64,000 bases of DNA from Pecten maximus (Eukaryota), in NCBI RefSeq assembly GCF_902652985.1, contig NC_047030.1, forward strand, positions 14,508,001 to 14,572,000, given 5' to 3'. Within the stretch, counting starts at the first letter, position 1, and each line of letters begins with the position of its first letter. The notes below the pieces were generated by a model that was not told where the DNA came from, ran no database searches, and was given only the letters and a program-made list of their open reading frames with translations. Both the position numbers and the translations under genes were made by a program. Of the stretch, positions 17,976-60,632 are shown piece after piece.

Positions 17976-18284
17976 GGTGAACTTTGAACTTTCGCGCTAA
18001 CTTCACATTTATGACAAAAAATGCACTAAATTTGCAACTCACATGACCCGTGCCTTAGTAGTCTTTCGTAATTATTCCTGAATATTCTATGATACGTATA
18101 ATATCGAATAGTCAATACTACGGTGCATTTTGATGTTGAAGTGGTACCGGTGTGGACGGAACGAAGCAAACTCGCCTTCCCAGAAGAGAACTCTCTTTAG
18201 TGTGAGTTAATAAAGTGACATGGTTTTCGGAACATCTTTTGACTCTTCAAAGAAATTTACGTAAAAAGTTCTATTGTCATTCGT
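17976..18284. promoter_or_regulatory. Probable bidirectional promoter and 5' UTRs shared by the SDR and SCLY genes
   Basis: The two start codons diverge with only 309 bp between them. Confidence 0.6.
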
Positions 18285-41423: not shown

Positions 41424-42310
41424 AAATTTTTTCACTCTCTTCACCTTTGACCTTGTGGTCAAGGTTGCAACGATCAAATACAGAGCAAAACACGTCGTTA
41501 TTGGGGCGATAAAGTTATGCCGCAACTTTCATTGAAATATCTTTATCAATTTAAAAGTTATCGCCGGATAAGCAATTATTAGCAAAAATGTTTTTGACTT
41601 TGAAATAAAGGTCAAAATACCCTTACGTAGTTCGTTACACATCGCCTTCAGGTAGTGCAAGTCTAAGTTGCAAGTTATATCAAGATATCTTCAACCGTAT
41701 TGAAGATATGGCTCGGACATACATTTGACCGTGAGGTCAAGGTCGCAAAGATTCAATGGCAGAGCAATTCAATTTTTCAGTGGGTGATAAAGGTTACAAC
41801 AACTTTCATTAAAATGTCGTTAACGATTTAGAAGTTCCATTCAGTACTTTCAAGAAATAGCGATCAAAAACTCCAACTGTTAAAATTCAAAGATGACCGC
41901 CTGTCGTCGGAAGAAGACGAATATGTCTTCCTTCATTCAAAGGGTGCTGAAAATCTGTAAAAAAAAAAAAAAAAAACAGATAGTAAGGTGTTTATACTTT
42001 CGACTCCATCAGACCACGGGGGTTGCAAGTTCTACTTAAAAATAGACATATGTATGAACAATAAACCGATCGGAAGCGTTATATTCCTGCCATATTCGTG
42101 CATTGCCTTGAGTAACATTCCATCACGTGATGGGTTGGAAAATCAGTGTGTCAAGTCTCTGTGCGGGTACAAAGCTTTCAAATCCAATCCTGAAATATTC
42201 TCTTTGAAGTCAAATAGCAAACTTAAAATGGAGTGAAATTTACGAGAAAATATGCGTCATATATTAGACACTACTATAGTGGCAGTGGTTCAAACACCTA
42301 TTTCATGTTA

Positions 42311-43030
42311 AGGCCCTGTCACACTGTTGCGTATCGTACTAGCGTATGCCAGCGTATGAAAAATTATCACTCATTACGCTGGTATACGCTGACATACGCT
42401 AGGGGTACGTTAGGCATAGGTGTATACGTTTCAAACACGCTGGCATACGCTGGGATACGCTGGCATACGCTGAGGCAGAAATAGATTTTTGAGCATGTTC
42501 AAAAATTTTGTGCGTATGCAGACGTATGGTTAATACGCTAAGCATACGCTAGGCATACGCTGAATACGCTAGAGGTACGATATAGGTACGTTACTCATAG
42601 GTCGAGTACGCTGGACGTAAGTTGCCATACGTTGGCGGAAAGTGTATCGTGCAACGAATATAGACATCTTGGCGTATGCCTGACGATTGAGTAACGTATT
42701 TAACGTACAACTAGCGTATTATTGGCGTATGGCCAGCGTATTCTCAGCGTATTGCCAGCGTTTTGATAAAGTGTATATATAGGCTCCCATTTCTAGCTCA
42801 TCTTCAGTTCTTCGTACGCTGGGCATACGCAGTTCATACGCTACTCATACGCTAGCCATACGCAGAGTACGCTGGCCATACGCTGGTCATACGCTACTCA
42901 TAGGTTCAATACGGTAAGTATACGCACAATTCTGTATTTTCAAGGGCTTTTTGTGCGTATGAAAATTATATTATGAATTTTCATTCGCTACTCATATATT
43001 TCTCTCATACGCAACAGTGTGACAGGGCCA
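42311..43030. mobile_element. PIF/Harbinger-like MITE in unit 1
   Basis: TIR ggccctgtcacactgttgcgtat; TTA TSD confirmed by the empty site catgTTAgatg at ~57171 in unit 3. Confidence 0.9.
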
Positions 43031-43414
43031 TTAGATGTGAAAATACACGTCATATATTAGATAAGACTATAGTGGCAGTGGTTCAAACACCTAGATGTGG
43101 ATACTAACGGTCCCATTGCAATCCCCTCTGGATCACTGGTCAAAACCGAAATATCTGTGATATTCATTCTTCAGTAGTACATCTTGTATTGTTAAAACGT
43201 AATGTACGTTTGATTAAAGACTTAGTCAGCAGGATGTGTTAGAGTTAAATAAGTTATATGGTTTAAATATATTTCTATTTACACTCCAGATAATAAATAG
43301 GATGGTGGCGGATCTGGCGCGGAGCTATTTATAGTTATTACTAATGCACTATCTGTATAAGGGTGGATCCCGTGTACTTTAGATGGAAGGAAACTTTTAC
43401 GGACGACAGGTGTG

Positions 43415-43582
43415 TATAAAGACAGTTTCATTGTGCTGGTGTATGCTAGTGATCTGATACTTATAATTGGTGTTTAAAATAAGAGGTGTCTTAGACACTA
43501 TATACTATTTGATAATAGTTTATCTACGGTAGTACAATAACAACAACGTGACTTACATTTACATATCAGCAAACAACACTAT
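43415..43582 (+). promoter_or_regulatory. Candidate TATA box and upstream non-coding exon of dioxygenase copy 1 (equivalents in copies 2 and 3)
   Basis: TATAAA at 43415 and a possible donor AT|GTAAGA at 43582/43583, which could pair with the acceptor at 44879. Motif-level evidence only. Confidence 0.25.
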
Positions 43583-43921
43583 GTAAGATACATTGTGCTT
43601 GATGATTAGCTATATATAACAATGTAACAGAAATGACGCAGGAAGACAATGTTTGACTCGTGCCCTGTCCGAGTCTCCAACGATACGTATACAGTGTGGT
43701 GGTCATTCCTGTTTCTATGTTAGATATATGTACCAATATATAATATTTATACTATACAGTGGGACAGTAAATCTTTTTTGAAGTGTATGCTTTAAGTACG
43801 TTATCCAGGGGTTGGCAGCTCCTGTTTGGGTCTAAAGTGGTCAGGAATGAGTTTTCGTGTCTTCAAAATGACACCCAACTAATTTTACAGTGAATGAAAC
43901 GACATGCTCTGAATGAAAGCT

Positions 43922-44560
43922 TCACCCCTTGATCCTTCCCTCGTTATTAAGTAGCCTTGTGTCCTGTTTGGGTACTAGGTGGTCGAAGAAACCTAGGAAA
44001 AACGTTATTTTCCAGTAGTACTTGGGGTCGTCCACGGCCTGATTCGCGTCATGACGTTGTGTTCCAGCCCTTCTAGGTGCTGCTGGCGCAATATCGAACT
44101 CGGTAGCAATGGTAATAGCTTCGTCATACAGCGTGTCCCAGACCATGCCATCAGCGCGTAAAATCTTGATGACTTTGTTCTCTGTAATTGCCAGGAATAC
44201 GTTTCACTGGGTGTATGAAGCTCGTTTGACCGGGATACACAGTACTGCTCAGGATATAATATGCCATCATCAATCCGATGATTAATTAAAACTACAGAAT
44301 CACACCTAGCCGCTCAACTGCCTTACTATCCTTTATATATTCAAGGCTACATGTATTTATGACAACTGTGAAAGATGCTTTGAATGTTTTGAGGGCGTTT
44401 GTCCTGCTAGAGTCCATAGTGTAGTTCTTTTCTCCAGTTCGTACCGCGCGTTTTCATTTTTGTGATAGTCCCTGTGATACATAGATGTCTTTTTCGCCTT
44501 GATGTTGTATAATACATACCATACAATTTCGACTGTTTTCTAGTAAACACATGTATACAA
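43922..44560 (-). pseudogene. hAT transposase remnant, unit 1
   Basis: PRRAGTQRH...YYWKITFF..FDHL peptide; homologous to the longer remnant in unit 3. Confidence 0.7.
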
Positions 44561-44891
44561 ATCACAGGGAGCAGGGCAATTTGACCGGGTTGGCCTTGTC
44601 ACCCTTGAGACCCTAGATACAAATATATATAACAGTATATTATGTAGTTGTTTTAACAATTACGAAATAGTTAGACCTGTTTGGAAAATTGAATTTGTGT
44701 GCAAAATACTACGTGGAGGTCAGAAAGGAAAGACGGACACTATTATACATTGACTTTGCAATTAATTCACTTTGATAAAGCTCATTTCTCATAAATCATG
44801 ATAATGAGAAAGAGATAGATGTTCGCTTTATACAATCCCATACAATCTCCTTTGAAAACCAGATGCTTTTTCTCTGCAGAACTCAACGATT

Positions 44892-45884
44892 ATGGGGTTT
44901 ACGGAACGAAATCGCACGGAGCTGGAGGAGAAAGGCTACACCGTGGTGGAAAACGTTCTCACCGAAACCGAATGTGGGGAATACATCCGGGCATTCAGGG
45001 ATTGGCTCACCGAATTCCCGGAGGGCGAATGGCCGTCCTCCGCTCATTCTCTCATTCAGGAATATAACATTGGCCATCATGAGGCTGCGTGGAGTACCCG
45101 CCTCAAAGCTAAAGCCGTCTTTTCCAAATTGTGGAAGACGGACAAGCTTCTTACTAGTGTCGACGCCATTGCAATAGGCCGGCCGCCAGAGGACGGAAAA
45201 GAGCTATTCGCGGAGGAAGGTCTCCATTGGTTACACGCTGATCAGGATGCAGAGAAGGTTGGTCTGCATGCTTACCAAGGGACAGTGTACCTGGAGGCGG
45301 TGGCTGAGGACGACTGGACATTCCACGTGATGGAAAGGTCACATCTCTACCTCAATAGTCTCTATGACCGGAACCAGAAAGCAGCACTAGAGAGTTCAAT
45401 TAATAAAAACCATTACATTCGGGATGATGACGAAGAATGGCTTATCTCTAAAGGTTGTGTCACAAAGCGTGTGGCGGTACCACGTGGGGGAATGGTTCTG
45501 TGGGACTCGAGACTTATACACGCAAATGCTCGTCCAAAAGAAGGGAGGGCACATCCAGATAGGTGGCGCTTTTGTGTGATGGTCTGTATGACTCCGGCAG
45601 CGTGGGCGACCGAAGAGGACCTGGAGACCAAGAATGAGGCTTACAGGGACGTAGCCATGACAACACATTGGCCTTCACAAGATGTTCAGATCATGTCTTC
45701 TTTATTTCCTTCAAAATATTCAAATAATATCGGCTGGTTGAAACAACTCCCAGAAAATGCAAAAACAACGGAAGTGAAGCAGATGTGTGGTGTGGTGTCG
45801 TATGATTTCAAAGACGGCGAACCAAACGGCCCCGAATGGATTCCCGTTTGGAATAAGGACAGTAACCAGGAAACAATGCCGTAA
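44892..45884 (+). CDS. PhyH-like (phytanoyl-CoA dioxygenase family) 2OG/Fe(II) oxygenase, copy 1, 330 aa
   Basis: Uninterrupted ORF with N-terminal ELEEKGYTVVENVLT, HxD (WLHADQD), YQG, GGMVLWDSRLIHAN (distal His) and a downstream Arg (RFCVMVC). A splice acceptor (tttttctctgcag) ends at 44879, 12 nt in frame upstream of the ATG, so the N-terminus could be longer. Confidence 0.82.
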   Translation: MGFTERNRTELEEKGYTVVENVLTETECGEYIRAFRDWLTEFPEGEWPSSAHSLIQEYNIGHHEAAWSTRLKAKAVFSKLWKTDKLLTSVDAIAIGRPPEDGKELFAEEGLHWLHADQDAEKVGLHAYQGTVYLEAVAEDDWTFHVMERSHLYLNSLYDRNQKAALESSINKNHYIRDDDEEWLISKGCVTKRVAVPRGGMVLWDSRLIHANARPKEGRAHPDRWRFCVMVCMTPAAWATEEDLETKNEAYRDVAMTTHWPSQDVQIMSSLFPSKYSNNIGWLKQLPENAKTTEVKQMCGVVSYDFKDGEPNGPEWIPVWNKDSNQETMP

Positions 45885-47049
45885 GTCATGATGTTAAAAG
45901 AGACTGGCCATGACGTCAGGGATAAGTCTTTTGGATGGCTTTGTAGCTTGGGCTGTCATCAAGTACGTTAGACAATGAATAAGAAACAGTTTTAGATCTA
46001 CATGAAGGATAGAAAGCCATGATGGAACTGGTCCTAAAATCACAATTTCACACTTACAATACACGAATACAATGTTGATTTACGAATACGAGGGAGGAAA
46101 GGCCCACCTAGTATATCTATTAGGTTGATATTTATACTATATTTATATTTAATCTGCCCAAGTTTGCCGAATTATTTAATTGTGAGCAATACATGAACCC
46201 CGTACAATATAAAGAGATAAGGAGAAGGTGAATTGGTGAACAGAGATGAGAGGGACATACCAGATAGCGCATGGCCCATTCTAACATCCAATGAGGGATG
46301 AAATGGATACACCATCATCTGTCCCTCATACTGTCTGCAGTATTGGTACCAATGGGACGAAAATGCGTCTTGACAATTTGCCATTTGACTTAACACGTTT
46401 GTTCCATCACCATCAGCGGTCGTCAAAGCTCAGTCATTTACAATCTTTGCTTGAAAAATAAATCAGACTTTCAAGAGGTTGCAAAGACAGTTTTCATTTT
46501 GGTGTTAAAGACTAAACTTGTGAAAATCATACTTGTAATGTGCGTTCCTCTATGATACATTTGTAGTGTGTCGTAGAGTATCGTAGAGGAGGGGAAATTA
46601 CAAGTCTGATTGTAATAAGATTGTGTTAAAGACAAACATTTTTCCAAGCGATGAATAAATCCGTATACCTTAATGAAGATATACAAAGCAAATAACTCCT
46701 GTACGGAATGATAAGTTTACAAATGTCGAGTGTTGTAGAGAGAAGCAACTAAAGGCGACTGAGAGGACATTTGTAGGAACAAGCTTCATGGGGACTTCAT
46801 CAATTGTAATTTCCGATAAACAGTGGTATCCATGTTCTCCAGCCATTGATCATTTTTGCGAGTCATCAACAAAAAACATTGACAGTATTTGTTGATAGTG
46901 TTGTGAACTAAATCTGTGATAATTATTTTTATTTTAAGAGGAACATTATTTTAATTAAAATATAATTGTTTCAATCATTTCGTCTTCTACATTTTGTGAT
47001 CATGTGTTTGACATGATTGTCAACACAACGGGCAAAGTATACCAGTCCA

Positions 47050-47372
47050 AGAAACAAGTGGCCCAATGAGCAGTAGGTAAAGGTCATTTATCCTACCAAA
47101 TACTGGCACAATATAACCCTGGGCCCTTTGGTTAGTTAGCTGTTTTGATAGTTTAACACATTTGGAACGAGTAACCTTAAAGGTAGCTTAAGATAATTCT
47201 TTTAAACAAACTTTGGTAGCCTGACCTCCTATAATGCTAAAGGTCCAATATATTGACACTGCCTTTTGGTTATTGAGAATCAACTATTAAAAGTGAAAAT
47301 TGATGCCTGGCGGACAATGATGCTGCACCACGGCATCAGCTCACTTGCCGTTAGGGCAGGTGACCGAAACAT
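47050..47372 (+). mobile_element. Degenerate HINE-like element (also at ~54470-54790 and ~61517-61835)
   Basis: aaacaagtggcccaatg start; tcacttgcc...ggcaggtga 3' hairpin. Confidence 0.45.
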
Positions 47373-49763
47373 AACTAAATACCCTGGACGTATTCAGAAT
47401 CATTCTTGTTTTTTTCCTTAATGAGATGAATTGAAAAGTCCTCCAAATCTATTGGAGGTGTTGTATAAATATTTGCTATCATGTAGATGTCATTTGTAAT
47501 TCTAGCTGCAAAAGATTCAACATTAGTTTTCTAGTCAATGTAAGTCGTTGCCATGGTAATACTTAGTAACACACATTGAAAGCACACACTATATGTATCA
47601 TTAATTATATTTATTATTTTAGATAAGGCAGATAACTCTGTGGGTTCTCGTGTTTGATTAAGTGTTCATACCTGGCCATCTTGGTGATAGACAAGGGTCT
47701 GCATCACCTCGCTTCTGGTAAATTCACAACCTAAAGAACATTTCTTAATTTATTTTTTTGACCCAGGTTCAATGTCATAAGATTTAGCTGTGTTTTTCAA
47801 GAATAGCAAAGCTCAGTGATATTATCTTTGTGGTCATTAGCTTTGCAAGAGTAAATGGTTATAAAGTTGATAAAATGGGCCACCTTGACACATCGCCAGG
47901 AACAGTGTTTCATCTAAGGTTAAACTAGATATTGGTCTATCAATGTATGACTGAAAACCCAAGTACACTGAATAAATTTAAAGTGGCTTGTGAAAACAAG
48001 TTACTCCTTTTAATTTCCTGAAACCGCATTTATGTCGAAGCAGAAGCTATGGAGTCACGATATAAACTGTTATTAACAACATTTTTAAAACATTCGAAAA
48101 ACTTAACTCCAGACCAAAGTTGCTTCCTGTATATTTATATCACTGACCTGTTATTCTTTCTAAATGTTACAAATATAATTAAGAATTAAAAATGGTTCAA
48201 TCAATAGAGTGAATCAGCATTGACAATATTACGTTAATCGCCTTACTAGTTTTACATACATGAAGACATATATAAGAGGAAAAGTTAAAAAGGCGATATT
48301 TTGCAAGGCTACATCTACAAAAAATAGTCTTCGGGATAGCAAAGAAGAATAAATCCTGTTGACTGAATTACACCATATCGTGATAAAAGTGTAGCTGATT
48401 GAAATTGCCTCATATCGTGGTAAAAGTTTAGCTGATTAAAATTACCTCATATCGTGGTAAAAGAGTAGACCAACTTAATTACATCATACCGGGGTAAAAG
48501 TTAAGAAAACTTAATTACGTCATATAGTGATAAAAGTGTAGACCTACTGAAATACATCATATCGTGTTAAAAGGGGTACAACTTGTACTTCAATCAATCG
48601 GCCAAGTTATTTTCCTTACAAGGTCATGCAGTCTTTCTCATCTTATTATTTCAGATTTCAAGGGTGTATATACATGCGACTTTGTTCAACCACTGAAATC
48701 GTAGTTGGTCTGAAAAACTCGACCGAAAGGTAAACGAAAGGACCACACAATACCTCGTTAATCTTGATACTACGTTAAATAGTAAAAGTAGATTTCTTTT
48801 TTATATCCTGATTATTGTTACGATTATTGATTAAACTATACATTGTTTTGGTCAACAAAAAAACATTTATTTTTATTTGTTTCACTCGCTCTACCCTTGG
48901 CCTTGAGGTAAAGGTTGCAACGATCAAATACAGAGCAAAACACGTCGTTATTGGGGCGATAAAGTTATGCCGCAACTTTCATTGAAATATCTTTATCAAT
49001 TTAAAAGTTATCGCCGGATAAGCAATTATTAGCAAAAATGTTTTTGACTTTGAAATAAAGGTCAAAATACCCTTACGTAGTTCGTTACACATCGCCTTCA
49101 GGTAGTGCAAGTCTAAGTTGCAAGTTATATCAAGATATCTTCAACCGTATTGAAGATATGGCTCGGACATACATTTGACCGTGAGGTCAAGGTCGCAAAG
49201 ATTCAATGGCAGAGCAATTCAATTTTTCAGTGGGTGATAAAGGTTACAACAACTTTCATTAAAATGTCGTTAACGATTTAGAAGTTCCATTCAGTACTTT
49301 CAAGAAATAGCGATCAAAAACTTCAACTGTTAAAATTCAAAGATGGCCGCCTGTCGTCGGAAGAAGACGAATATGTCTTCCTTCATTCAAAGGGTGCTGA
49401 AAATCTGTAAAAAAAAAAAAAAAAAAAAACAGATAGTAAGGTGTTTATACTTTCGACTCCATCAGACCACGGGGGTTGCAAGTTCTACTTAAAAATAGAC
49501 ATATGTATGAACAATAAACCGATCGGAAGCGTTATATTCCTGCCATATTCGTGCATTGCCTTGAGTAACATTCCATCACGTGATGGGTTGGAAAATCAGT
49601 GTGTCAAGTCTCTGTGCGGGTACAAAGCTTTCAAATCCAATCCTGAAATATTCTCTTTGAAGTCAAATAGCAAACTTAAAATGGAGTGAAATTTACGAGA
49701 AAAAATGCGTCATATATTAGACACTACTATAGTGGCAGTGGTTCAAACACCTATTTCATGTTA

Positions 49764-50459
49764 AGGCCCTGTCACACTGTTGCGTATCGTACTAGCGTAT
49801 GCCAGCGTATGAAAAATTATCACTCATACGCTGGTATACGCTGACATACGCTAGGGGTACGTTAGGCATAGATGTATACGTTTCAAACACGCTGACATAC
49901 GCTGGCATACGCTGAGGCAGAAATAAATTTTTGAGCATGTTCAAAAATTTTGTGCGTATGCAGACGTATGGTTAATACGCTAAGCATACGCTAGGCATAC
50001 GCTGAATACGCTAGAGGTACGATATAGGTACGTTACTCATAGGTCGAGTACGCTGGACGTAAGTTGCCATACGTTGGCGGAAAGTGTATCGTGCAACGTA
50101 TATAGACATCTTGGCGTATGCCTGACGATTGAGTAACGTATTTAACGTACAACTAGCGTATTATTGGCGTATGGCCAGCGTATTCTCAGCGTATTGCCAG
50201 CGTTTTGATAAAGTGTATATATAGGCTCCCATTTCTAGCTCATCTTCAGTTCTTCGTACGCTGGGCATACGCAGTTCATACGCTACTCATACGCTAGCCA
50301 TACGCAGAGTACGCTACTCATACGCTACTCATAGGTTCAATACGGTAAGTATACGCACAATTCTGTATTTTCAAGGGCTTTGTGCGTATGAAAATTATAT
50401 TATGAATTTTCATTCGCTACTCATATATTTCTCTCATACGCAACAGTGTGACAGGGCCA
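49764..50459. mobile_element. PIF/Harbinger-like MITE in unit 2 (same insertion, duplicated)
   Basis: Same TIR, TSD and flanks as 42311-43030. Confidence 0.9.
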
Positions 50460-51340
50460 TTAGATGTGAAAATACACGTCATATATTAGATAAGACTATA
50501 GTGGCAGTGGTTCAAACACCTAGATGTGGATACTAACGGTCCCATTGCAATCCCCTCTGGATCACTGGTCAAAACCGAAATATCTGTGATATTCATTCTT
50601 CAGTAGTACATCTTGTATTGTTAAAACTTGTACGTTTGATTAAAGACTTAGTCAGCAGGATGTGTTAAATAAGTTATATGGTTTAAATATATTTCTATTT
50701 ACACTCCAGATAATAAATAGGATGGTGGCGGATCTGGCGCGGAGCTATTTATAGTTATTACTAATGCACTATCTGTATAAGGGTGGATCCCGTGTACTTT
50801 AGATGGAAGGAAACTTTTACGGACGACAGGTGTGTATAAAGACAGTTTCATTGTGCTGGTGTATGCTAGTGATCTGATACTTATAATTGGTGTTTAAAAT
50901 AAGAGGTGTCTTAGACACTATATACTATTTGATAATAGTTTATCTACGGTAGTACAATAACAACAACGTGACTTACATTTACATATCAGCAAACAACACT
51001 ATGTAAGATACATTGTGCTTGATGATTAGCTATATATAACAATGTAACAGAAATGACGCAGGAAGACAATGTTTGACTCGTGCCCTGTCCGAGTCTCCAA
51101 CGATACGTATACAGTGTGGTGGTCATTCCTGTTTCTATGTTAGATATATGTACCAATATATAATATTTATACTATACAGTGGGACAGTAAATCTTTTTTG
51201 AAGTGTATGCTTTAAGTACGTTATCCAGGGGTTGGCAGCTCCTGTTTGGGTCTAAAGTGGTCAGGAATGAGTTTTCGTGTCTTCAAAATGACACCAACTA
51301 ATTTTACAGTGAATGAAACGTCATGCTCTGAATGAAAGCT

Positions 51341-51975
51341 TCACCCCTTGATCCTTCCCTCGTTATTAAGTAGCCTTGTGTCCTGTTTGGGTACTAGGTG
51401 GTCGAAGAAACCTAGGAAAAACGTTATTTTCCAGTAGTACGTGGGGTCGTCCACGGCCTGATTCGCGTCATGACGTTGTGTTCCAGCCCTTCTAGGTGCT
51501 GCTGGCGCAATATCGAACTCGGTAGCAATGGTAATAGCTTCGTCATACAGCGTGTCCCAGACCATGCCATCAGCGCGTAAAATCTTGATGACTTTGTTCT
51601 CTGTAATTGCCAGGAATAGGTTTCACTGGGTGTATGAAGCTCGTTTGACCGGGATACACAGTACTGCTCAGGATATAATATGCCATCATCAATCCGATGA
51701 TTAATTAAAACTACAGAATCACACCTAGCCGCTCAATTGCCTTACTATCCTTTATATATTCAAGGCTACATGTATTTATGACAACTGTGAAAGATGCTTT
51801 GAATGTTTTGAGGGCGTTTGTCCTGCTAGAGTCCATAGTGTAGTTCTTTTCTCCAGTTCGTACCGCGCGTTTTCATTTTTGTGATAGTCCCTGTGATACA
51901 TAGATGTCTTTTTCGCCTTGATGTTGTATAATACATACCATACAATTTCGACTGTTTTCTAGTAAACACGTATAC
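51341..51975 (-). pseudogene. hAT transposase remnant, unit 2
   Basis: Near-identical to the unit 1 remnant. Confidence 0.7.
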
Positions 51976-52308
51976 AAATCACAGGGAGCAGGGCAATTTG
52001 ACCGGGTTGACCTTGTCACCCTTGAGACCCTAGATACAAATATATATAACAGTATATTATGTAGTTGTTTTAACAATTACGAAATAGTTAGACCTGTTTG
52101 GAAAATTGAATTTGTGTGCAAAATACTACGTGGAGGTCAGAAAGGAAACACGGACACTATTATACATTGACTTTGCAATTAATTCACTTTGATAAAGCTC
52201 ATTTCTCATAAATCATGATAATGAGAAAGAGATAGATGTTCGCTTTATACAATCCCATACAATCTCCTTTGAAAACCAGATGCTTTTTCTCTGCAGAACT
52301 CAACGAGT

Positions 52309-53301
52309 ATGGGGTTTACGGAACGAAATCGCACGGAGCTGGAGGAGAAAGGCTACACCGTGGTGGAAAACGTTCTCACCGAAACCGAATGTGGGGAATA
52401 CATCCGGGCATTCAGGGATTGGCTCACCGAATTCCCGGAGGGCGAATGGCCGTCCTCCGCTCATTCTCTCATTCAGGAATATAACATTGGCCATCATGAG
52501 GCTGCGTGGAGTACCCGCCTCAAAGCTAAAGCCGTCTTTTCCAAATTGTGGAAGACGGACAAGCTTCTTACTAGTGTCGACGCCATTGCAATAGGCCGGC
52601 CGCCAGAGGACGGAAAAGAGCTATTCGCGGAGGAAGGTCTCCATTGGTTACACGCTGATCAGGATGCAGAGAAGGTTGGTCTGCATGCTTACCAAGGGAC
52701 AGTGTACCTGGAGGCGGTGGCTGAGGACGACTGGACATTCCACGTGATGGAAAGGTCACATCTCTACCTCAATAGTCTCTATGACCGGAACCAGAAAGCA
52801 GCACTAGAGAGTTCAATTAATAAAAACCATTACATTCGGGATGATGACGAAGAATGGCTTATCTCTAAAGGTTGTGTCACAAAGCGTGTGGCGGTACCAC
52901 GTGGGGGAATGGTTCTGTGGGACTCGAGACTTATACACGCAAATGCTCGTCCAAAAGAAGGGAGGGCACATCCAGATAGGTGGCGCTTTTGTGTGATGGT
53001 CTGTATGACTCCGGCAGCGTGGGCGACCGAAGAGGACCTGGAGACCAAGAAGGAGGCTTACAGGGACGTAGCCATGACAACACATTGGCCTTCACAAGAT
53101 GTTCAGATCATGTCTTCTTTATTTCCTTCAAAATATTCAAATAATATCGGCTGGTTGAAACAACTCCCAGAAAATGCAAAAACAACGGAAGTGAAGCAGA
53201 TGTGTGGTGTGGTGTCGTATGATTTCAAAGACGGCGAACCAAACGGCCCCGAATGGATTCCCGTTTGGAATAAGGACAGTAACCAGGAAACAATGCCGTA
53301 A
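52309..53301 (+). CDS. PhyH-like 2OG/Fe(II) oxygenase, copy 2, 330 aa
   Basis: Identical to copy 1 except one N>K change (ETKNE vs ETKKE). Confidence 0.82.
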   Translation: MGFTERNRTELEEKGYTVVENVLTETECGEYIRAFRDWLTEFPEGEWPSSAHSLIQEYNIGHHEAAWSTRLKAKAVFSKLWKTDKLLTSVDAIAIGRPPEDGKELFAEEGLHWLHADQDAEKVGLHAYQGTVYLEAVAEDDWTFHVMERSHLYLNSLYDRNQKAALESSINKNHYIRDDDEEWLISKGCVTKRVAVPRGGMVLWDSRLIHANARPKEGRAHPDRWRFCVMVCMTPAAWATEEDLETKKEAYRDVAMTTHWPSQDVQIMSSLFPSKYSNNIGWLKQLPENAKTTEVKQMCGVVSYDFKDGEPNGPEWIPVWNKDSNQETMP

Positions 53302-55764
53302 CTCATGATGTTAAAAGAGACTGGTCATGACGTCAGGGATAAGTCTTTTGGATGGCTTTGTAGCTTGGGCTGTGATCAAGTACGTTAGACAATGAATAGA
53401 AAACAGTTTTAGATCTACATGAAGGATAGAAAGCCATGATGGAACTGGTCCTAAAATCACAATTTCACACTTACAATACACGAATACAATGTTGATTTAC
53501 GAATACGAGGGAGGAAAGGCCCAACTAGTATATCTATTAGGTTGATATTTATACTATATTTATATTTAATCTGCCCAAGTTTGCCGAATTATTTAATTGT
53601 GAGCAATACATGAACCCCGTACAATATAAAGAGATAAGGAGAAGGTGAATTGGTGAACAGAGATGAGAGGGACATACCAGATGGCGCATGGCCCATTCTA
53701 ACATCCAATGAGGGATGAAATGGATACACTATCATCTGTCCCTCATACTGTCTGCAGTATTGGTACCAATGGGACGAAAATGCGTCTTGACAATTTGCCA
53801 TTTGACTTAACACGTTTCTTCCATCACCATCAGCGGTCGTCAAAGCTCAGTCATTTACAATCTTTGCTTGAAAAATAAATCAGACTTTCGAGAGGTTGCA
53901 AAGAAAGTTTTCATTTTGGTGCTAAAGACTAAACTTGTGAAAATCATACTTGTAATGTGCGTTCCTCTATGATACATTTGTAGTGTGTCGGAGAGTATCG
54001 TAGAGGAGGGGAAATTACAAGTCTGATTTTTATAAAATTGTGTTAAAGACAAACATTTTTCCAGGCGATGAATCAATCCGTATACCTTAATGAAGATATA
54101 CAAAGCAAATAACTCCTGTACGGAATGATAAGTTTACAAATGTCGAGTGTTGTACAGAGAAGCAACTAAAGGCGACTGAGAGGACATTTGTAGGAACAAG
54201 CTTCATGGGGACTTCATCAATTGTAATTTACGATAAACAGTGGTATCCATGTTCTCCAGCCATTGATCATTTTTGCGAGTCATCAACAAAAAACATTGAC
54301 AGTATTTGTTGATAGTGTTGTGAACTAAATCTGTGATAATTATTTTAATTTTAAGAGGAACATTATTTTAATTAAAATATAATTGTTTCAATCATTTCGT
54401 CTTCTACATTTTGTGATCATGTGTTTGACATGATTGTCAACACAACGGGCAAAGTATACCAGTCCAAGAAACAAGTGGCCCAATGAGCAGTAGGTAAAGG
54501 TCATTTATCCTACCAAATACTGGCACAATATAACCCTGGGCCCTTTGGTTAGTTAGCTGTTTTGATAGTTTAACACATTTGGAACGAGTAACCTTAAAGG
54601 TAGCTTAAGATAATTCTGTTAAACAAACTTTGGTAGCCTGACCTCCTATAATGCTACTGGTCCAATATATTGACACTGCCTTTTGGTTATTGAGAATCAA
54701 CTATTAAAAGTGAAAATTGATGCCTGGCGGACAATGATGCTGCACCACGGCATCAGCTCACTTGCCGTTTGGGCAGGTGACCGAAACATAACTAAATACA
54801 CTGGACGTATTCAGAATCACTCTTGTTTTTTTCCTTAATGAGATGAATTGAAAAGTCCTCCAAATCTATTGGAGGTATTTGCTATCATGTAGATGTCATT
54901 TGTAATTCTAGCTGCAAAAGATTCAACATTAGTTTTCTAGTCAATGTAAGTCGTTGCCATGGTAATACTTAGTAACACACATTGAAAGCACACACTATAT
55001 GTATCATTAATCATATTTATTATTTTAGATAAGGCAGATAACTCTGTAGGTTCTCGTGTTTGATTAAGTGTTCATACCTGGCCATCTTGGTGATAGACAA
55101 GGGTCTGCATCACCTCGCTTCTGGTAAATTCACTACCTAAAGAACATTTCTTAATTTATTTTTTTGACCCAGGTTCAATGTCATAAGATTTAGCTGTGTT
55201 TTTCAAGAATAGCAAAGCTCAGTGATATTATCTTTGTGGTCATTAGCTTTGCAAGAGTAAATGGTTATAAAGTTGATAAAATGGGCCACCTTGACACATC
55301 GCCAGGAACAGTGTTTCATCTAAGGTTAAACTAGATATTGGTCTATCAATGTATGACTGAAAACACAAGTACACTGAATAAATTTAAAGTGGCTTGTGAA
55401 AACAAGTTACTCCTTTTAATTTCCTTAAACCACATTTATGTCGAAGCAGAAGCTATGGAGTCACGATATAAACTGTTATTAACAACATTTTTAAAACATT
55501 CGAAAAACTTGACTCCAGACCAAAGTTGCTTCCTGTATAATATCACTGACCTGTTATTCTTTCTAAATGTTACAAATATAATTAAGAATTAAAAATGGTT
55601 CAATTAATAGAGTGAATCAGCATTGACAATATTACGTTAATCGCCTTACTAGTTTTACATACATGAAGACATATATAAGAGGAAAAGTTAAAAAGGCGAT
55701 ATTTTGCAAGGCTATATCTACAAAAAATAGTCTTCGGGATAGCAAAGAAGAATAAATCCTGTTG

Positions 55765-56050
55765 ACTGAATTACACCATATCGTGGTAAAAGTGTAGCTG
55801 ATTGAAATTACATCATATCGTGGTAAAAGTGTAGCTGATTGAAATTGCCTCATATCGTGGTAAAAGTTTAGCTGATTAAAATTACCTCATATCGTGGTAA
55901 AAGTGTAGCTGATTGAAATTACATCATATCTGGGTAAAAGAGTAGACCAACTTAATTACATCATACCAGGGTAAAAGTTAAGAAAACTTAATTACGTCAT
56001 ATAGTGATAAAAGTGTAGACCTACTGAAATACATCGTATCGTGTTAAAAG
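55765..56050. repeat. ~39-bp tandem repeat (catatcgtggtaaaagtgtagctgattgaaatt); fewer copies at 48370-48570, similar array at 62510-62790
   Basis: Direct repeats whose copy number differs between array units. Confidence 0.85.
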
Positions 56051-58099
56051 GGGTACAACTTGTACTTCAATCAATTGGCCAAGTTATTTTCCTTACAAGG
56101 TCATGCAGTCTTTCTCATCTTATTATTTCAGATTTCAAGGGTGTATATACATGCGACTTTGTTCAACCACTGAAATCGTAGTTGTCTGAAAAACTTGACC
56201 GAAAGGTAAACGAAAGGACCACACGATACCTCGTCTCCAAAAAGTAGATTTCTTTTTTATATCCTGGTTATTGTTACGATTATTGATTAAACTATACATT
56301 GTTTTGGTCAACAAAAAAACATTTATTTTTATTTTTTCACTCCCTCTACCTAGGTTGCAACGATCAAATACAGAGCAAAACACGTCGTTATTGGGGCGAT
56401 AAAGTTATGCCGCAACTTTCATTGAAATATCTTTATCAATTTAAAAGTTATCGCCGGATAAGCAATTATTAGCAAAAATGTTTTTGACTTTGAAATAAAG
56501 GTCAAAATACCCTTACGTAGTTCGTTACACATCGCCTTCAGGTAGTGCAAGTCTAAGTTGCAAGTTATATCAAGATATCTTCAACCGTATTGAAGATATG
56601 GCTCGGACATACATTTTACCGTGAGGTCAAGGTCGCAAAGATTCAATGGCAGAGCAATTCAATTTTTCAGTGGGTGATAAAGGTTACAACAACTTTCATT
56701 AAAATGTCGTTAACGATTAAGAAGTTCCATTCAGTACTTTCAAGAAATAGCGATCAAAAACTTCAACTGTTAAAATTCAAAGATGGCCGCCTGTCGTCGG
56801 AAGAAGACGAATATGTCTTCCTTCATTCAAAGGGTGCTGAAAATCTGAAAAAAAAATGAAATATATTTACACACAACAGACAGCATGCTGTATATATTTT
56901 CGACACCATCAGACCACGGGGGTTGCAAGTTCTACTTTAAAATAGACATATTTATGAACACTAAACCCATTCGAAGCGTTATATTCCTGCCATATTCATG
57001 GACAATCAGTGTGTCAAGTCTCTGTGCGGGTACAAAGCTTTCAAATCCAATCCTGAAATATTCTCTTTGAAGTCAAATAGCAAACTTAAAATGGAGTGAA
57101 ATTTACGAGAAAATATGCGTCATACATTAGACACGACTATAGTGGCAGTGTTTCAAACACCTATTTCATGTTAGATGTGAAAATATACGTCATATATTAG
57201 ATACGACTATAGCGGCACTGGTTCAAACACCTAGATATGAATATCAACGGTCCCATTGAAATTCCCTCTGGATCACTGGTCAAAACCGAAATATCTGTGA
57301 TATAGGATGTGTTAGAGTTAAATAAGTTATATGGTTTAAATATATAAATATGTGTTTGATCTATGATGTAATCTATATTTCTATTTACACTCCAGATAAT
57401 ATATAAATAGGATGGTGGCGAATCTGACGCGGAGCTATTTATAGCTATTACTAATGCACTATCTGTATAAGGGTGGATCCCGTGTACTTTAGATGGAAGG
57501 AAACTTTTACGGACGACAGGTGTGTATAAAGCTTGGGATCTGATACTTAATTGGTGTTTGAAATAAGAGAAGGTGTCTTAGACACTATATACTATTTGAT
57601 ATTAGTTTATCTACGGTAGTGCAATAACAATAACGTGACTTACATTTACATATCAGCAAACAACACTATGTAAGATACATTGTGCTTGATGATTAGATAT
57701 ATATAACAATGTAACAGAAATGACGCAGGAAGACACTGTTTGACTCGTGCCCTGTCCGGGTCTCCAACGATACGTATACAGTGTGGTGGTCATTCCTGTT
57801 TCTATGTTAGATATATGTACCAATATATAATATTTATACTATACAGTGGGACAGTAAATCTTTTTTGAAGTGTATGCTTTAAGTACGTTATCCAGGGGTT
57901 GTCAGCTCCTGTTTGGGTCTGAAGTGGTCAGGAATGAGTTTTCGTGTCTTCAAAACGACACCAACTAATTTTACAGTGAATGAAACGTGATGCTCTGAAT
58001 GAAAAGCTGACAAAATACAATATTTCATAATCGACAGGCAACAAAAAGCTATTTATCTATCAGTTATACATACACACTCAGGCCTCTACTGTGTATGAA

Positions 58100-59150
58100 T
58101 CCTAGCTTCAGATGATGTGCAACGGTCTCTTGTCTAATTTCGCATTGGCGAACGTCTCCACAACTGTCCAAACATCCTCTTCCCTGCGTATTTTCTGTTG
58201 TCATCGTAGATCAAAGGTAGGTCTTGACCCTCTTTATACTACTGAATGATCTTTCTGCAGTGACAGTTGTCACCGGTATTGTGAGTAGTACTGGTAACAT
58301 TAGGATACAACAAGGGGTCCGTCTGATTTAGGTACTTGATAATATCTGCTGCTTCTTCTGTCAGATGAAACCATTGACCATCGAGTCTTCCAGTTTTCTA
58401 TCTCAAGCTGGTATTTATCGGACTTGGTCCGATCGACGTCGTAAGCATTTGCATCGTAAATGGCCTGGAATACTTCAGAGATGAGCTCTATAGCAAGTTT
58501 TGCAAGAAGAAAGCTTCACCCCTTGATCCTTCCCTTGCTATTAAGTAGCCTTGTGTCCTGTTTGGGTACTAGGTGGTCGAAGAAACCTAGGAAAAACGTG
58601 ATTTTCCAGTAGTACGTGGGGTCGTCCACGGCCTGATTCGCGTCATGACGTTGTGTTCCAGCCCTTCTAGGTGCTGATGGCGCAATATCAAACTCGGTAG
58701 CAATGGTAATAGCTTCGTCATACAGCGTGTCCCAGACCATGCCATCAGCGCGTAAAATCTTGATGACTTTGTTCTCTGTAATTGCCAGCAATAGGTTGCA
58801 CTGGGTGTATGAAGCTAGTTTGACCGGGATACACAGTACTGCTCAGGATATAATATGCCATCATCAATCCGAAGATTAATTAAAACTACAGAATCACACC
58901 TAGCCGCTCATTTGCCTTACTATCCTTTATATATTCAAGGCTACATGTATTTATGACAACTGTGAAAGATGCTTTGAATGTTTTGAGGGCGTTTGTCCTG
59001 CTAGAGTCCATAGTGTAGTTCTTTTCTCCAGTTCGTACCGCGCGATTTCGTTTTTGTGATAGTCCCTGTGATACATAGATGTCTTTTTCGCCTTGATGTT
59101 GTATAATACATAGCATACAATTTCGACTGTTTTCTAATAAACACATGTAT
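58100..59150 (-). pseudogene. hAT transposase remnant with C-terminal dimerisation motif, unit 3
   Basis: The minus strand reads VLLTIPVTTVTAERSFSSIKRVKTYL*STM (~58200-58293), with stops and frameshifts. Confidence 0.8.
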
Positions 59151-59166
59151 ACAAATCACAGGGAGC

Positions 59167-59393
59167 AGGGGCCGCGGTGGCCGAGTGGTTAAGGTGTACC
59201 GACACTTTATCACTAGCCCTCCACCACTGGGTTGCGAGTTCGAAACCTACGTGGGGCAGTTGCCAGGTACTGGCCGTAGGCCGGTGGTTTTTCTCCGGGT
59301 ACTCCGGCTTTCCTCCACCTCCAAAACCTGGCACGTCCTTAAATGACCCTGGCTGTTAATAGGACGTTAAACAAAAACAAAACAAACCAAACC
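59167..59393 (+). mobile_element. tRNA-derived SINE (V-domain-like), specific to unit 3
   Basis: ggggccgcggtggccgagtggttaagg A-box, gagttcgaaacc B-box, ttctccgggtactccggctttcctccac core, A-rich tail, TSD aatcacagggagc/aatcagagggagc. Absent at the equivalent sites in units 1 and 2. Confidence 0.92.
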
Positions 59394-59639
59394 AATCAGA
59401 GGGAGCCGGGCAATTTGATTATGAAATAGTTAGACCTGTTTGGAAAATTGAATTTGTGTGCAAAATACTACGTGGAGGTCAGAAAGGAAAGACGGACGCT
59501 ATTATTCATTGACTTTGCAATTAATTCACTTTGATAAAGCTCATTTCTCATAAATCATGATAATGAGAAAGAGATTGATGTTCGCTTTATACAATCTCCT
59601 TTGAAAACCAGATGCTTTTCTCTGCAGAACTCAACGAGT

Positions 59640-60632
59640 ATGGGGTTTACGGAACGAAATCGCACGGAGCTGGAGGAGAAAGGCTACACCGTGGTGGAAA
59701 ACGTTCTCACCGAAACCGAATGTGGGGAATACATGCGGGCATTCAGGGATTGGCTCACCGAATTCCCGGAGGGCGAATGGCCGTCCTCCGCTCATTCTCT
59801 CATTCAGAGATATAAGATTGGCCATCATGAGGCTGCGTGGAGTACCCGCCTCAAAGCTAAAGCCGTCTTTTCCAAATTGTGGGAGACGGACAAGCTTCTT
59901 ACTAGTGTCGACGCCATTGCAATAGGCCGGCCGCCAGAGGACGGAAAAGAGCTATTCGCGGAGGAAGGTTTCCATTGGTTACACGCTGATCAGGATGCAG
60001 AGAAGGTTGGTCTGCATGCTTACCAAGGGACAGTGTACCTGGAGGCGGTGGCTGAGGACGACTGGACATTCCACGTGATGGAAAGGTCACATCTCTACCT
60101 CAATAGTCTCTATGACCGAAACCAGAAAGCAGCACTAAAGAGTTCAATTAATAAAAACCATTACATTCGGGATGATGACGAAGAATGGCTTATCTCTAAA
60201 GGTTGTGTCACAAAGCGTGTGGCGGTACCACGTGGGGGAATGGTTCTGTGGGACTCGAGACTTATACACGCAAATGCTCGTCCAAAAGAAGGGAGGGCAC
60301 ATCCAGATAGGTGGCGCTTTTGTGTGATGGTCTGTATGACTCCGGCATCGTGGGCGACCGAAGCGGACCTGGAGACCAAGAAGGAGGCTTACAGGGACGT
60401 AGCCATGACAACACATTGGCCTTCACAAGATGTTCGGATCATGTCTTCTTCATTTCCTTCAAAATATTCAAAGAATATCGGCTGGTTGAAACAACTCCCA
60501 GAAAAAGCAAAAACAACGGAAGTGAAGCAGATGTGTGGTGTGGTGTCGTATGATTTCAAAGACGGCGAACCAAACGGCCCCGAATGGATTCCCGTTTGGA
60601 ATAAGAACAGTAACCAGGAAACAATGCCGTAA
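59640..60632 (+). CDS. PhyH-like 2OG/Fe(II) oxygenase, copy 3, 330 aa
   Basis: ATG at 59640; 13 amino-acid differences from copy 2; all metal-binding motifs intact. Confidence 0.82.
   Translation: MGFTERNRTELEEKGYTVVENVLTETECGEYMRAFRDWLTEFPEGEWPSSAHSLIQRYKIGHHEAAWSTRLKAKAVFSKLWETDKLLTSVDAIAIGRPPEDGKELFAEEGFHWLHADQDAEKVGLHAYQGTVYLEAVAEDDWTFHVMERSHLYLNSLYDRNQKAALKSSINKNHYIRDDDEEWLISKGCVTKRVAVPRGGMVLWDSRLIHANARPKEGRAHPDRWRFCVMVCMTPASWATEADLETKKEAYRDVAMTTHWPSQDVRIMSSSFPSKYSKNIGWLKQLPEKAKTTEVKQMCGVVSYDFKDGEPNGPEWIPVWNKNSNQETMP

What the first reader, a model, noticed from the sequence alone, without database searches (positions are those of the whole stretch)
44892..60632. Recently amplified tandem array of intronless PhyH-like 2OG/Fe(II) dioxygenases
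Seen: at least three intact, uninterrupted 330-codon ORFs in ~7.4-kb tandem units, whereas the neighbouring genes have 6 and 13 coding exons. The ORFs are visibly more GC-rich than their flanks. Known: HxD...H plus a downstream Arg is the 2OG/Fe(II) facial-triad architecture, and GYxVVENVL / LWDSRxxH are PhyH-clan-like. I do not recognise the protein as a PHYH or PHYHD1 orthologue. Inference: an uncharacterised oxygenase subfamily, possibly retroposed or horizontally acquired, expanded by dosage for specialised metabolism or detoxification.
Basis: partly seen in the sequence, partly recalled or inferred. Interest (0 to 1): 0.75.

Follow-up and report, generated by a model that had tools for sequence, protein, structure and literature searches.

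The report
Scallop oxygenase copies lost membrane anchor
A scallop has four tandem copies of an uncharacterised, mollusc-wide gene for a likely iron/2-oxoglutarate oxygenase, and three have lost the predicted membrane anchor while that shortened form is still transcribed, so they likely make a soluble version; the genes have introns and follow the mollusc family tree rather than a recent gene transfer.

Summary
The three 330-codon ORFs are real, but they are neither intronless nor full-length. Each unit has a short 5' exon. RNA contigs from 3 of 4 runs splice it to the main exon (GT-AG, 1,470 nt). A fourth copy just beyond the window ends in a hydrophobic helix, like 58 of 116 mollusc relatives. 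Copies 1-3 share a 14-bp deletion that removes this helix, and RNA contigs in 3 runs cross that junction without a gap.

The protein keeps H115-D117-H210 and R226 and folds nearest Gig2/YbiU (Z 21.0/20.1), ahead of PHYH (14.5). It nests among bivalves inside a lophotrochozoan clade, so recent transfer and recent retroposition fail. The catalytic domain stayed under purifying selection (dN/dS 0.39) while the tail remnant decayed. Conserved residues 173-176 changed. A MITE supplies an extra upstream exon to copy 2.

Copies 1 and 2 differ by 1.24%, within allelic range, so true copy number is uncertain. The substrate is untested. Verdict: a likely relocalised duplicate of an uncharacterised oxygenase family; moderate interest.

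The parts
41427..48876 (+). Repeat unit 1 (approximate ends)
   Evidence: Self-alignment 41427-49763 to 48877-57173, 96.2%; 1.24% substitutions over 8,213 aligned bases
42311..43030 (+). MITE upstream of copy 1: terminal inverted repeats, TTA target duplication; carries TATATATA (42774), a TCAGTT initiator-like site (42804) and a splice donor after 42913
   Evidence: Empty site TTTCATG-TTA-GATGTG in unit 3; motif positions; dispersed relatives on many contigs of G000
43290..43409 (+). 5' exon of copy 1; ATG at 43383 encodes MEGNFYGRQ in frame with the main exon; TATA-like TATAAG at 43356
   Evidence: tblastn of P0001; joint 43406/44877 GT..AG in runs X2, X4, X12
43410..44879 (+). Intron, 1,470 nt, GT-AG
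   Evidence: table 5; donor and acceptor positions
44892..45884 (+). Copy 1 ORF, 330 aa, tail-less; H115, D117, H210, R226 kept
45879..45880 (+). Site of the 14-bp deletion shared by copies 1-3, which brings in the stop
   Evidence: Alignment with copy 4; crossed without a gap by RNA contigs in X2, X4, X8 (records 13, 21, 28)
45880..45978 (+). Out-of-frame remnant of the hydrophobic tail, with two further stops in the old frame and Val-to-Asp inside the helix
   Evidence: 16 of 99 bases differ from copy 4
45885..46971 (+). 3' untranslated region; ATTAAA at 46954; poly(A) loose end after 46971 in one run
   Evidence: tables 2 and 7
49764..50459 (+). MITE upstream of copy 2; source of an extra upstream exon (donor after 50344)
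   Evidence: the X2 joint geometry fits this copy's MITE, one contig in one run
50710..50829 (+). 5' exon of copy 2
52309..53301 (+). Copy 2 ORF, 330 aa, tail-less; the tail-less type best matched by RNA
   Evidence: copy-2 alleles at 45885, 46107, 46401 carried in 4 of 4 runs; with its 5' exon it equals P0124
57396..57519 (+). 5' exon of copy 3 (no MITE upstream)
59169..59390 (+). Short interspersed repeat inserted in the intron of copy 3 only; looks tRNA-derived (my reading of the sequence)
   Evidence: Other copies at 20286-20506 and 9702-9905; sequence
59640..60632 (+). Copy 3 ORF, 330 aa, tail-less; 14 amino-acid-changing and 1 silent difference from copy 2. Copy 4, with the tail, follows outside the window at G000:C16:14574597-14575694
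   Evidence: with its 5' exon copy 3 equals P0122

Best explanation
The window holds three of four tandem copies of a scallop gene for an uncharacterised PhyH/Gig2-like protein that likely uses iron and 2-oxoglutarate to hydroxylate a small molecule; these three share a 14-base deletion that removes the C-terminal hydrophobic helix (a predicted membrane anchor) kept by the fourth copy, so they would make a soluble form of the enzyme. SHOWN: fold, metal ligands, gene structure, the deletion, transcription and splicing of both a tail-less and a tailed form, and descent within molluscs. INFERRED from established chemistry of this class: H115/D117/H210 bind Fe(II), R226 holds 2-oxoglutarate, O2 is split to give succinate, CO2 and an Fe(IV)=O that abstracts a hydrogen from the substrate. 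INFERRED: copy 4 is a tail-anchored, cytosol-facing organelle-membrane enzyme; the duplicates are released to the cytosol; changes at residues 173-176 (FYYL to NHYI) and loss of basic residues in copies 1/2 alter what binds; a MITE gave copies 1/2 a second promoter. My bet for the substrate is a diet-derived small organic molecule handled in the digestive gland (about 35%), ahead of an endogenous lipid or amino-acid derivative (about 35% together) or a protein/RNA (about 25%).
For: Fold: model pLDDT 88.7; best solved matches Gig2 6akz Z 21.0, rmsd 3.4, 278 aligned, and YbiU 4rgk Z 20.1, rmsd 3.3, 264 aligned. Ligands: H115 in 270 of 270, D117 in 270 of 270, H210 in 268 of 270, R226 in 267 of 270 other family rows. 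Tail: copy 4 model has a separate helix 350-377 after a low-confidence linker; hydropathy 1.99 against -0.04; 58 of 116 members of the mollusc clade carry such a tail and 0 of 105 proteins outside it, so the tail-less state is normal for the wider family and does not cut into the domain. Selection: dN/dS 0.38-0.39 for copies 1-3 against copy 4; the 99-nt remnant differs at 15-16 sites and has two extra stops, while the 990-nt ORFs have none (crude p about 0.01). Expression: spliced 5' junction in 3 of 4 runs, deletion junction crossed in 3 of 4 runs, copy-4 alleles in 4 of 4 runs. Residue 174 is W/F/Y in 76 of 76 viral and 47 of 49 bacterial rows; N173 occurs in 0 of 119 mollusc relatives, H174 in 4, I176 in 6. 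[quoted passage not shown]
Against: No activity, substrate, protein or localisation data. Among tail-less copies dN (1.8-2.0%) is close to non-coding divergence (2.1-3.5% in four of five segments, 6.9% in the fifth), and 15:1 is not significantly above neutral (binomial p 0.11), so relaxed constraint fits as well as adaptation. The 173-176 changes could simply damage the enzyme; I had no coordinates, so their place at the substrate site is recalled from PhyH-clan structures, and a paper to check it was not held. Coding alleles private to copy 3 were not among the 40 variant rows shown (38 were hidden), and five of the seven copy-1-only sites listed showed the other allele in all runs. I could not show that the 9 queen scallop genes belong to this family. 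The family's presence in giant viruses, Chlamydiae and fungi argues for a commonplace substrate, not an algal one. The MITE exon rests on one contig.
Confidence: 0.6

Rival explanations
1. The tail-less copies are young duplicates on the way to becoming pseudogenes: still transcribed from the inherited promoter but losing function; only copy 4 matters.
For: Loss of a tail conserved across bivalves and gastropods; rare residues at conserved sites 173, 174, 176; dN close to the non-coding rate between copies 2 and 3; the same genome holds broken paralogues at C16:13.15-13.16 Mb.
Against: No stop or frameshift in three 990-nt ORFs while the tail took three lesions; dN/dS 0.39 against copy 4; all family-invariant residues kept; about half of the mollusc clade lacks the tail; tail-less transcripts in several studies.
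Confidence: 0.25
2. The array is partly an assembly artefact or a private copy-number variant: copies 1 and 2 are two alleles of one locus placed in tandem, leaving two tail-less genes plus one tailed gene. This can hold together with the best explanation.
For: Copies 1 and 2 differ by 102 of 8,213 bases (1.24%), below the 1.71% heterozygosity reported for Pecten maximus (10.1101/2020.01.08.887828); one coding difference; RNA contigs of other animals mix copy-1, -2 and -3 marks in the 3' UTR and mostly show one allele per site.
Against: Three tail-less variants cannot all be alleles of one locus in a diploid, so at least two tail-less loci exist. A very recent real duplication or gene conversion gives the same pattern. 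Contigs drop rare variants. That paper reports haplotig purging and 3.3% duplicated BUSCOs.
Confidence: 0.35
3. One reading: an intronless gene recently gained by horizontal transfer or retroposition and amplified for dosage.
For: The catalytic domain is in one exon, while a second subfamily in the same genome has an intron at codon 103; the wider family is common in giant viruses (169 of 178 candidate stretches) and Chlamydiae-titled genomes (27 of 53 loci).
Against: 5' intron spliced in RNA; tree follows mollusc taxonomy; the intron-bearing paralogues are only 37-56% identical and form a clade shared with gastropods; 7 of 12 bivalve-like contigs have the same single-exon domain and 9 of 11 tested have an acceptor within 15 nt of the ATG (L010 and L011 are near-identical); GC is not anomalous.
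Confidence: 0.03

Closest known systems
Gig2-like / DUF1479 oxygenases (Candida albicans Gig2, 6akz; YbiU, 4rgk, 2csg; PF07350)
   Same: Best structural matches, Z 21.0 and 20.1 over 264-278 residues; distant members of the family carry both PF07350 and PF05721; both have no established substrate (recalled; searches found nothing on it).
   Different: 14-17% identity; PF07350 does not hit the scallop protein; the match starts at residue 61-65 of those 416-451 aa chains; a C-terminal hydrophobic tail was found only in the mollusc clade of this family.
PhyH-clan small-molecule oxygenases (ColD, SnoK/SnoN, proline hydroxylase H11, EctD, AusE, KanJ)
   Same: Same fold and HxD...H...R site; Z 15.7-17.0; profile hits SnoK E 2.6e-5 and EctD E 7.8e-5.
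   Different: 9-18% identity; microbial biosynthetic enzymes; the scallop family has further near-invariant residues (R70, D91, H259). A shared fold does not give the substrate.
Animal PHYH and PHYHD1
   Same: Same Pfam family at marginal score; same fold (Z 14.5 and 14.2).
   Different: 12-14% identity; profile E 0.042 and 0.019; the genome holds other, stronger PF05721 genes on C7 and C2; no PTS1 ending and no PTS2-like nonapeptide by inspection.
Giant-virus 'phytanoyl-CoA dioxygenase' proteins (CeV-01B, Tupanvirus, Solumvirus, Pithovirus; a nimavirus Scv136-like protein)
   Same: Same family: Foldseek E 1e-21 to 1e-18, TM 0.70-0.77; same invariant residues.
   Different: 19-35% identity; no tail; uncharacterised; no conserved gene neighbourhood; animals do not nest among them.
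Relocalisation of a duplicate by loss of a membrane anchor (general pattern; e.g. soluble and tail-anchored cytochrome b5 or b5 reductase forms; recalled, no call)
   Same: One catalytic domain in anchored and soluble versions.
   Different: Here it arises by tandem duplication plus a frameshifting deletion, seems to recur within one mollusc family (up to 15 losses by Dollo count, an upper bound), and comes with a transposon-derived exon.

Membership tests
PhyH-clan Fe(II)/2OG oxygenase (PF05721) | HxD...H iron ligands | tested here: met
   H115, D117, H210 in all four copies and nearly all relatives
PhyH-clan Fe(II)/2OG oxygenase (PF05721) | Arg on the last core strand for 2-oxoglutarate | tested here: met
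   R226 begins strand E226-235; 267 of 270 rows; its role is inferred
PhyH-clan Fe(II)/2OG oxygenase (PF05721) | Double-stranded beta-helix fold of PhyH type | tested here: met
PhyH-clan Fe(II)/2OG oxygenase (PF05721) | Pfam gathering score | tested here: met
   23.2 and 23.0 bits against cut-off 22, marginal
PhyH-clan Fe(II)/2OG oxygenase (PF05721) | Fe(II)- and 2OG-dependent turnover | not testable with these tools
   needs enzyme assay
PHYH / PHYHD1 orthologue | Sequence orthology | tested here: not met
   12-14% identity, profile E 0.042/0.019; stronger PF05721 genes elsewhere in G000 (I did not confirm those are PHYH/PHYHD1)
PHYH / PHYHD1 orthologue | Peroxisomal targeting signal (PHYH) | tested here: not met
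   No PTS1 ending; no PTS2-like motif by inspection of the N-termini (consensus recalled)
Gig2-like / DUF1479 (PF07350) | Nearest solved fold | tested here: met
   Z 21.0 and 20.1, next 17.0
Gig2-like / DUF1479 (PF07350) | PF07350 profile match | tested here: not met
   Not hit at E up to 1
Recent processed retrocopy | No introns | tested here: not met
   1,470-nt intron spliced
Recent processed retrocopy | Close intron-bearing parent in the same genome | tested here: not met
   Paralogues 37-56% identical, separate old clade
Recent processed retrocopy | Genomic poly(A) remnant and target duplication | not tested
   Not searched once the two features above had failed
Recent horizontal acquisition | Nested among non-animal sequences, absent from relatives | tested here: not met
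Recent horizontal acquisition | Compositional anomaly | tested here: not met
Tail-anchored membrane protein (copy 4) | Single C-terminal hydrophobic helix with a short basic end | tested here: met
   Helix 350-377, ends KYVRQ; prediction only
Tail-anchored membrane protein (copy 4) | Membrane insertion and organelle | not testable with these tools
   needs localisation
PIF/Harbinger-type MITE (label recalled) | Terminal inverted repeats, 3-bp TTA/TAA duplication, empty site, dispersed copies | tested here: met
PIF/Harbinger-type MITE (label recalled) | Autonomous partner element | not tested
   No transposase search made

The most novel reading that the evidence does not exclude
This family is an unrecognised phase-I detoxification system of filter-feeding molluscs: Fe/2OG oxygenases that hydroxylate algal metabolites, possibly the proline-like toxin domoic acid. 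It would have entered early lophotrochozoans from a giant-virus or protist pool, gained a membrane tail in molluscs, and repeatedly spun off soluble, retuned duplicates. The scallop array would catch one such event in progress: anchor lost, pocket changed, transposon promoter gained.
Probability: 0.08. Interest if true: 0.85.

Novelty: new variant of a known kind. Interest (0 to 1): 0.42.

Why it matters
If the tail-less copies are active, the locus is a compact natural experiment: a membrane-bound and a soluble version of one enzyme, 92-93% identical, differing in a handful of candidate pocket residues. That makes substrate discovery for a whole uncharacterised family tractable; the family has thousands of members in molluscs, annelids, fungi, amoebae, Chlamydiae and giant viruses. 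A role in handling algal compounds would bear on why king scallops retain domoic acid so long (recalled), a fisheries problem. If the copies are decaying, or copies 1 and 2 are alleles, it is an ordinary young duplication in a genome rich in them.

Tried and rejected
Recent transfer, recent retroposition and a GC anomaly: rejected. PHYH/PHYHD1 orthology: rejected.

Positive selection between copies 2 and 3 (14:1, apparent dN/dS about 4): not accepted. Binomial p 0.11 against neutral; the Fisher contrast with copy-4 comparisons gives p 0.013, but dN only matches the non-coding rate and dS is unusually low, which gene conversion could cause.

Gene neighbourhoods of 53 bacterial and 79 viral loci gave no shared partner: no neighbour cluster in more than 7 of 132 loci. 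NCBIfam gave no family over cut-off for 5 of 5 proteins. A single-sequence PDB search gave nothing. The Atlas returned only PhyH/Gig2-like unnamed-function clusters and holds no model. Earlier scan notes: none.

Literature, 10 searches: no paper describing this family or these genes was found; six gene and protein identifiers gave 0 papers. The library lacks most subscription journals, so this is weak evidence of absence. In the queen scallop supplement only the first 4.0 million characters are held: no PF05721 label, and four 11-base motifs hit only unrelated transcripts; Files S2 and S3, which would decide whether the 9 genes are this family, were not visible.

The idea that residue 174 matches a substrate-stacking Phe of SnoK comes from the alignment plus memory; it could not be confirmed. 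The careful tree did not finish; the quick IQ-TREE tree (48 rows) and two FastTree trees (221 and 271 rows, length-filtered) were used, and test_one_clade was not run. Contig depth was not used to rank copies. Whether copy 3's own coding sequence is transcribed remains open. No complex prediction was run, as no binding is claimed.
Full report
1. Observation. Three 330-codon ORFs lie at the stated places, in units of about 7.4 kb; units 1 and 2 align at 96.2% over 8.4 kb and unit 3 aligns in pieces. The window is G000:C16:14508001-14572000, and a fourth copy starts 2.6 kb beyond it. A DNA search with the 3' part found four copies in G000. The closest named proteins are from scallops: Pecten maximus at 93% (copy 4 is P0001; copies 2 and 3 with their 5' exon are P0124 and P0122), then Argopecten, Ylistrum and Mizuhopecten at 77-80%.

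2. The genes are not intronless. A pyrimidine tract and AG lie 12 nt upstream of each ATG, and a short exon encoding MEGNFYGRQ (a variant in copy 4) lies upstream in all four units. I laid 4 of the 24 runs offered, one from each of four studies. Three of the four join 43409 to 44880 across a 1,470-nt GT-AG intron; cover is confined to the exons, a 1.1-kb 3' UTR and repeats, and one run shows a poly(A) end after 46971. Only one of the four is on record as RNA; the splicing pattern shows the others to be transcripts. The layout is old. Of 20 metagenome loci, 12 have nearest proteins in the same mollusc clade: 7 carry the domain in one stretch, 4 have introns at later positions, 1 is cut short, and none of the 11 that span codon 103 has an intron there. 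Nine of 11 tested have an acceptor within 15 nt of the ATG. A second subfamily in G000 (C16, 7.16-7.29 and 13.15-13.17 Mb) has an intron at codon 103 and includes broken copies. GC of the ORFs (0.50, GC3 0.53) is within the range of neighbouring exon pieces (0.43-0.50, GC3 0.45-0.59).

3. The three copies are truncated. Copy 4 runs 365 codons from the same ATG and ends in MVVTSGISLVVGFAAWAVIKYVRQ, modelled as a free helix after a low-confidence linker. Copies 1-3 share a 14-bp deletion after codon 329 that brings in a stop. The tail survives out of frame with two more stops and an Asp inside the helix; it differs from copy 4 at 15-16 of 99 bases, against 44-47 of 978 in the ORFs. RNA contigs in X2, X4 and X8 cross the deletion site without a gap, so it is real and carried by several animals; copy-4 alleles are also present in all four runs. 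By a hydropathy test, 58 of 116 members of the mollusc clade have the tail and 0 of 105 proteins outside it. The tail is therefore a mollusc addition that has been dropped several times (at most about 15; some will be incomplete gene models).

4. What the protein is. Pfam gives PhyH at the margin. The model (pLDDT 88.7) matches Gig2 and YbiU best (Z 21.0, 20.1), then microbial PhyH-clan enzymes (15-17), then PHYH and PHYHD1 (14.5, 14.2). H115, D117, H210 and R226 are kept in every copy and in 267-270 of 270 other rows; R70, D91 and H259 are nearly as constant. The family is large: 3,461 representatives at E up to 0.001, 420 at 1e-30. It includes giant viruses, bacteria (27 of 53 loci titled as Chlamydiae), fungi and a dictyostelid. 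Named animal members in the three searches (best 120, 78 and 120 rows) were all molluscs, annelids or a brachiopod; this does not prove absence elsewhere. In the quick ML tree these animals form one clade (SH-aLRT 100). The window copies sit with copy 4 (99), then Argopecten (96), pectinids (100), pteriomorphs (90) and bivalves (93). The sister of the animal clade is unresolved: a fungal-dictyostelid group and one long viral branch. Recent transfer is rejected; ancient transfer is open.

5. Divergence after the tail was lost. Against copy 4, dN/dS is 0.38-0.39 at dS about 0.09. All tail-less copies read NHYI at 173-176 where copy 4 reads FYYL; N173 is seen in 0 of 119 mollusc relatives, H174 in 4, I176 in 6, and 174 is aromatic in nearly all viral and bacterial members. 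This stretch lies in the insertion between core strands IV and V, which in PhyH-clan enzymes covers the substrate (recalled). The five changes specific to copies 1/2 all remove a basic residue: R57E, R111L, K167E, R266Q, K278N. Copies 2 and 3 differ by 14 replacement and 1 silent change; this is not significantly above neutral and dN is near the non-coding rate, so relaxation and adaptation cannot be told apart.

6. A transposon exon. Units 1 and 2 carry a 0.7-kb element with terminal inverted repeats and a TTA duplication; unit 3 has the empty site. Relatives are spread over G000 (133 matches, lower bound). It holds TATATATA 32 nt before a TCAGTT site and a donor about 100 nt further on; such TATA-initiator pairs occur 3 times in the window, two of them in these elements. 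One X2 contig joins element sequence to the 5' exon, with a geometry that fits copy 2's element and a GT-AG splice. The longer leader has two short upstream ORFs. Contigs cannot show a start, so the promoter is inferred.

7. Copy number. Copies 1 and 2 differ by 1.24%, less than the 1.71% heterozygosity reported for P. maximus (10.1101/2020.01.08.887828, passages). RNA contigs mostly show one allele per site, favour copy-2 alleles, and mix marks of copies 1, 2 and 3 in the 3' UTR. At least two tail-less loci and one tailed locus are needed; whether copy 1 is a third is open.

8. Function. The chemistry is inferred from the fold and ligands. No neighbourhood, family model or paper names a substrate (and the ten searches listed under Tried and rejected). 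The one lead is Table 6 of PMC6410316: PF05721 enriched, 9 genes, mostly up, in queen scallop digestive gland after toxic diatom exposure, along with P450s and other detoxification families. I could not tie those genes to this family.

9. Papers seen. PMC6410316: passages, supplement list, part 1 and two searches of a supplement cut at 4.0 million characters. 10.1101/2020.01.08.887828, PMC12006828, PMC11817969, PMC8174845 and PMC9324277: passages only; the last three added nothing firm (a PF05721 gene of unknown family near an outlier marker in a mussel; a PHYHD1-named transcript; a reference title). All others: search listings only.

10. Verdict. A real, young tandem duplication of an old, inherited, uncharacterised oxygenase, whose notable feature is loss of the predicted membrane anchor with continued transcription. 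New variant of a known kind; interest 0.42.

Noticed in passing
window 9129-17996, minus strand: Three exon pieces of a short-chain dehydrogenase gene (adh_short).
   Followed up: partly
window 23242-23517, plus strand: Exon piece of an aminotransferase class V gene; the gene was not identified further.
   Followed up: partly
window 10262-11728, 23711-25879, 26349-26991 and other arrays: Long minisatellites that give spurious repetitive ORFs of 158-267 codons.
   Followed up: no
window 59169-59390; also 20286-20506 and 9702-9905: A short interspersed repeat, apparently tRNA-derived, inserted in the intron of copy 3 only.
   Followed up: partly
G000:C16 7.16-7.29 Mb and 13.15-13.17 Mb (L004-L009): At least seven paralogues of a second subfamily with an intron at codon 103 and no tail, also in tandem; at least three have stops or frameshifts. 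All family members found lie on one chromosome-scale contig.
   Followed up: partly
fold search, rank 5: An 824-aa 'Scv136-like' protein of a shrimp nimavirus contains this family's domain (TM 0.77, E 4e-19): an animal virus carrying it.
   Followed up: no
L017, L018, L020, L028: Clam-like members of the same clade have introns in the 3' half of the domain that other members lack, which suggests intron gain.
   Followed up: no
L037-L082 and L083-L161: The family is frequent in environmental Chlamydiae and giant viruses, both tied to protist hosts, with no conserved neighbours.
   Followed up: partly
L164, L165, L167: Three of four other MITE copies examined keep the splice donor and one keeps the TATA-initiator pair, so this element may donate promoters elsewhere.
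   Followed up: no
window 43376 region: In run X12 a cDNA adaptor joins a copy-4-type contig about 31 nt before the first donor, downstream of the TATAAG box, hinting at the ancestral start site.
   Followed up: partly
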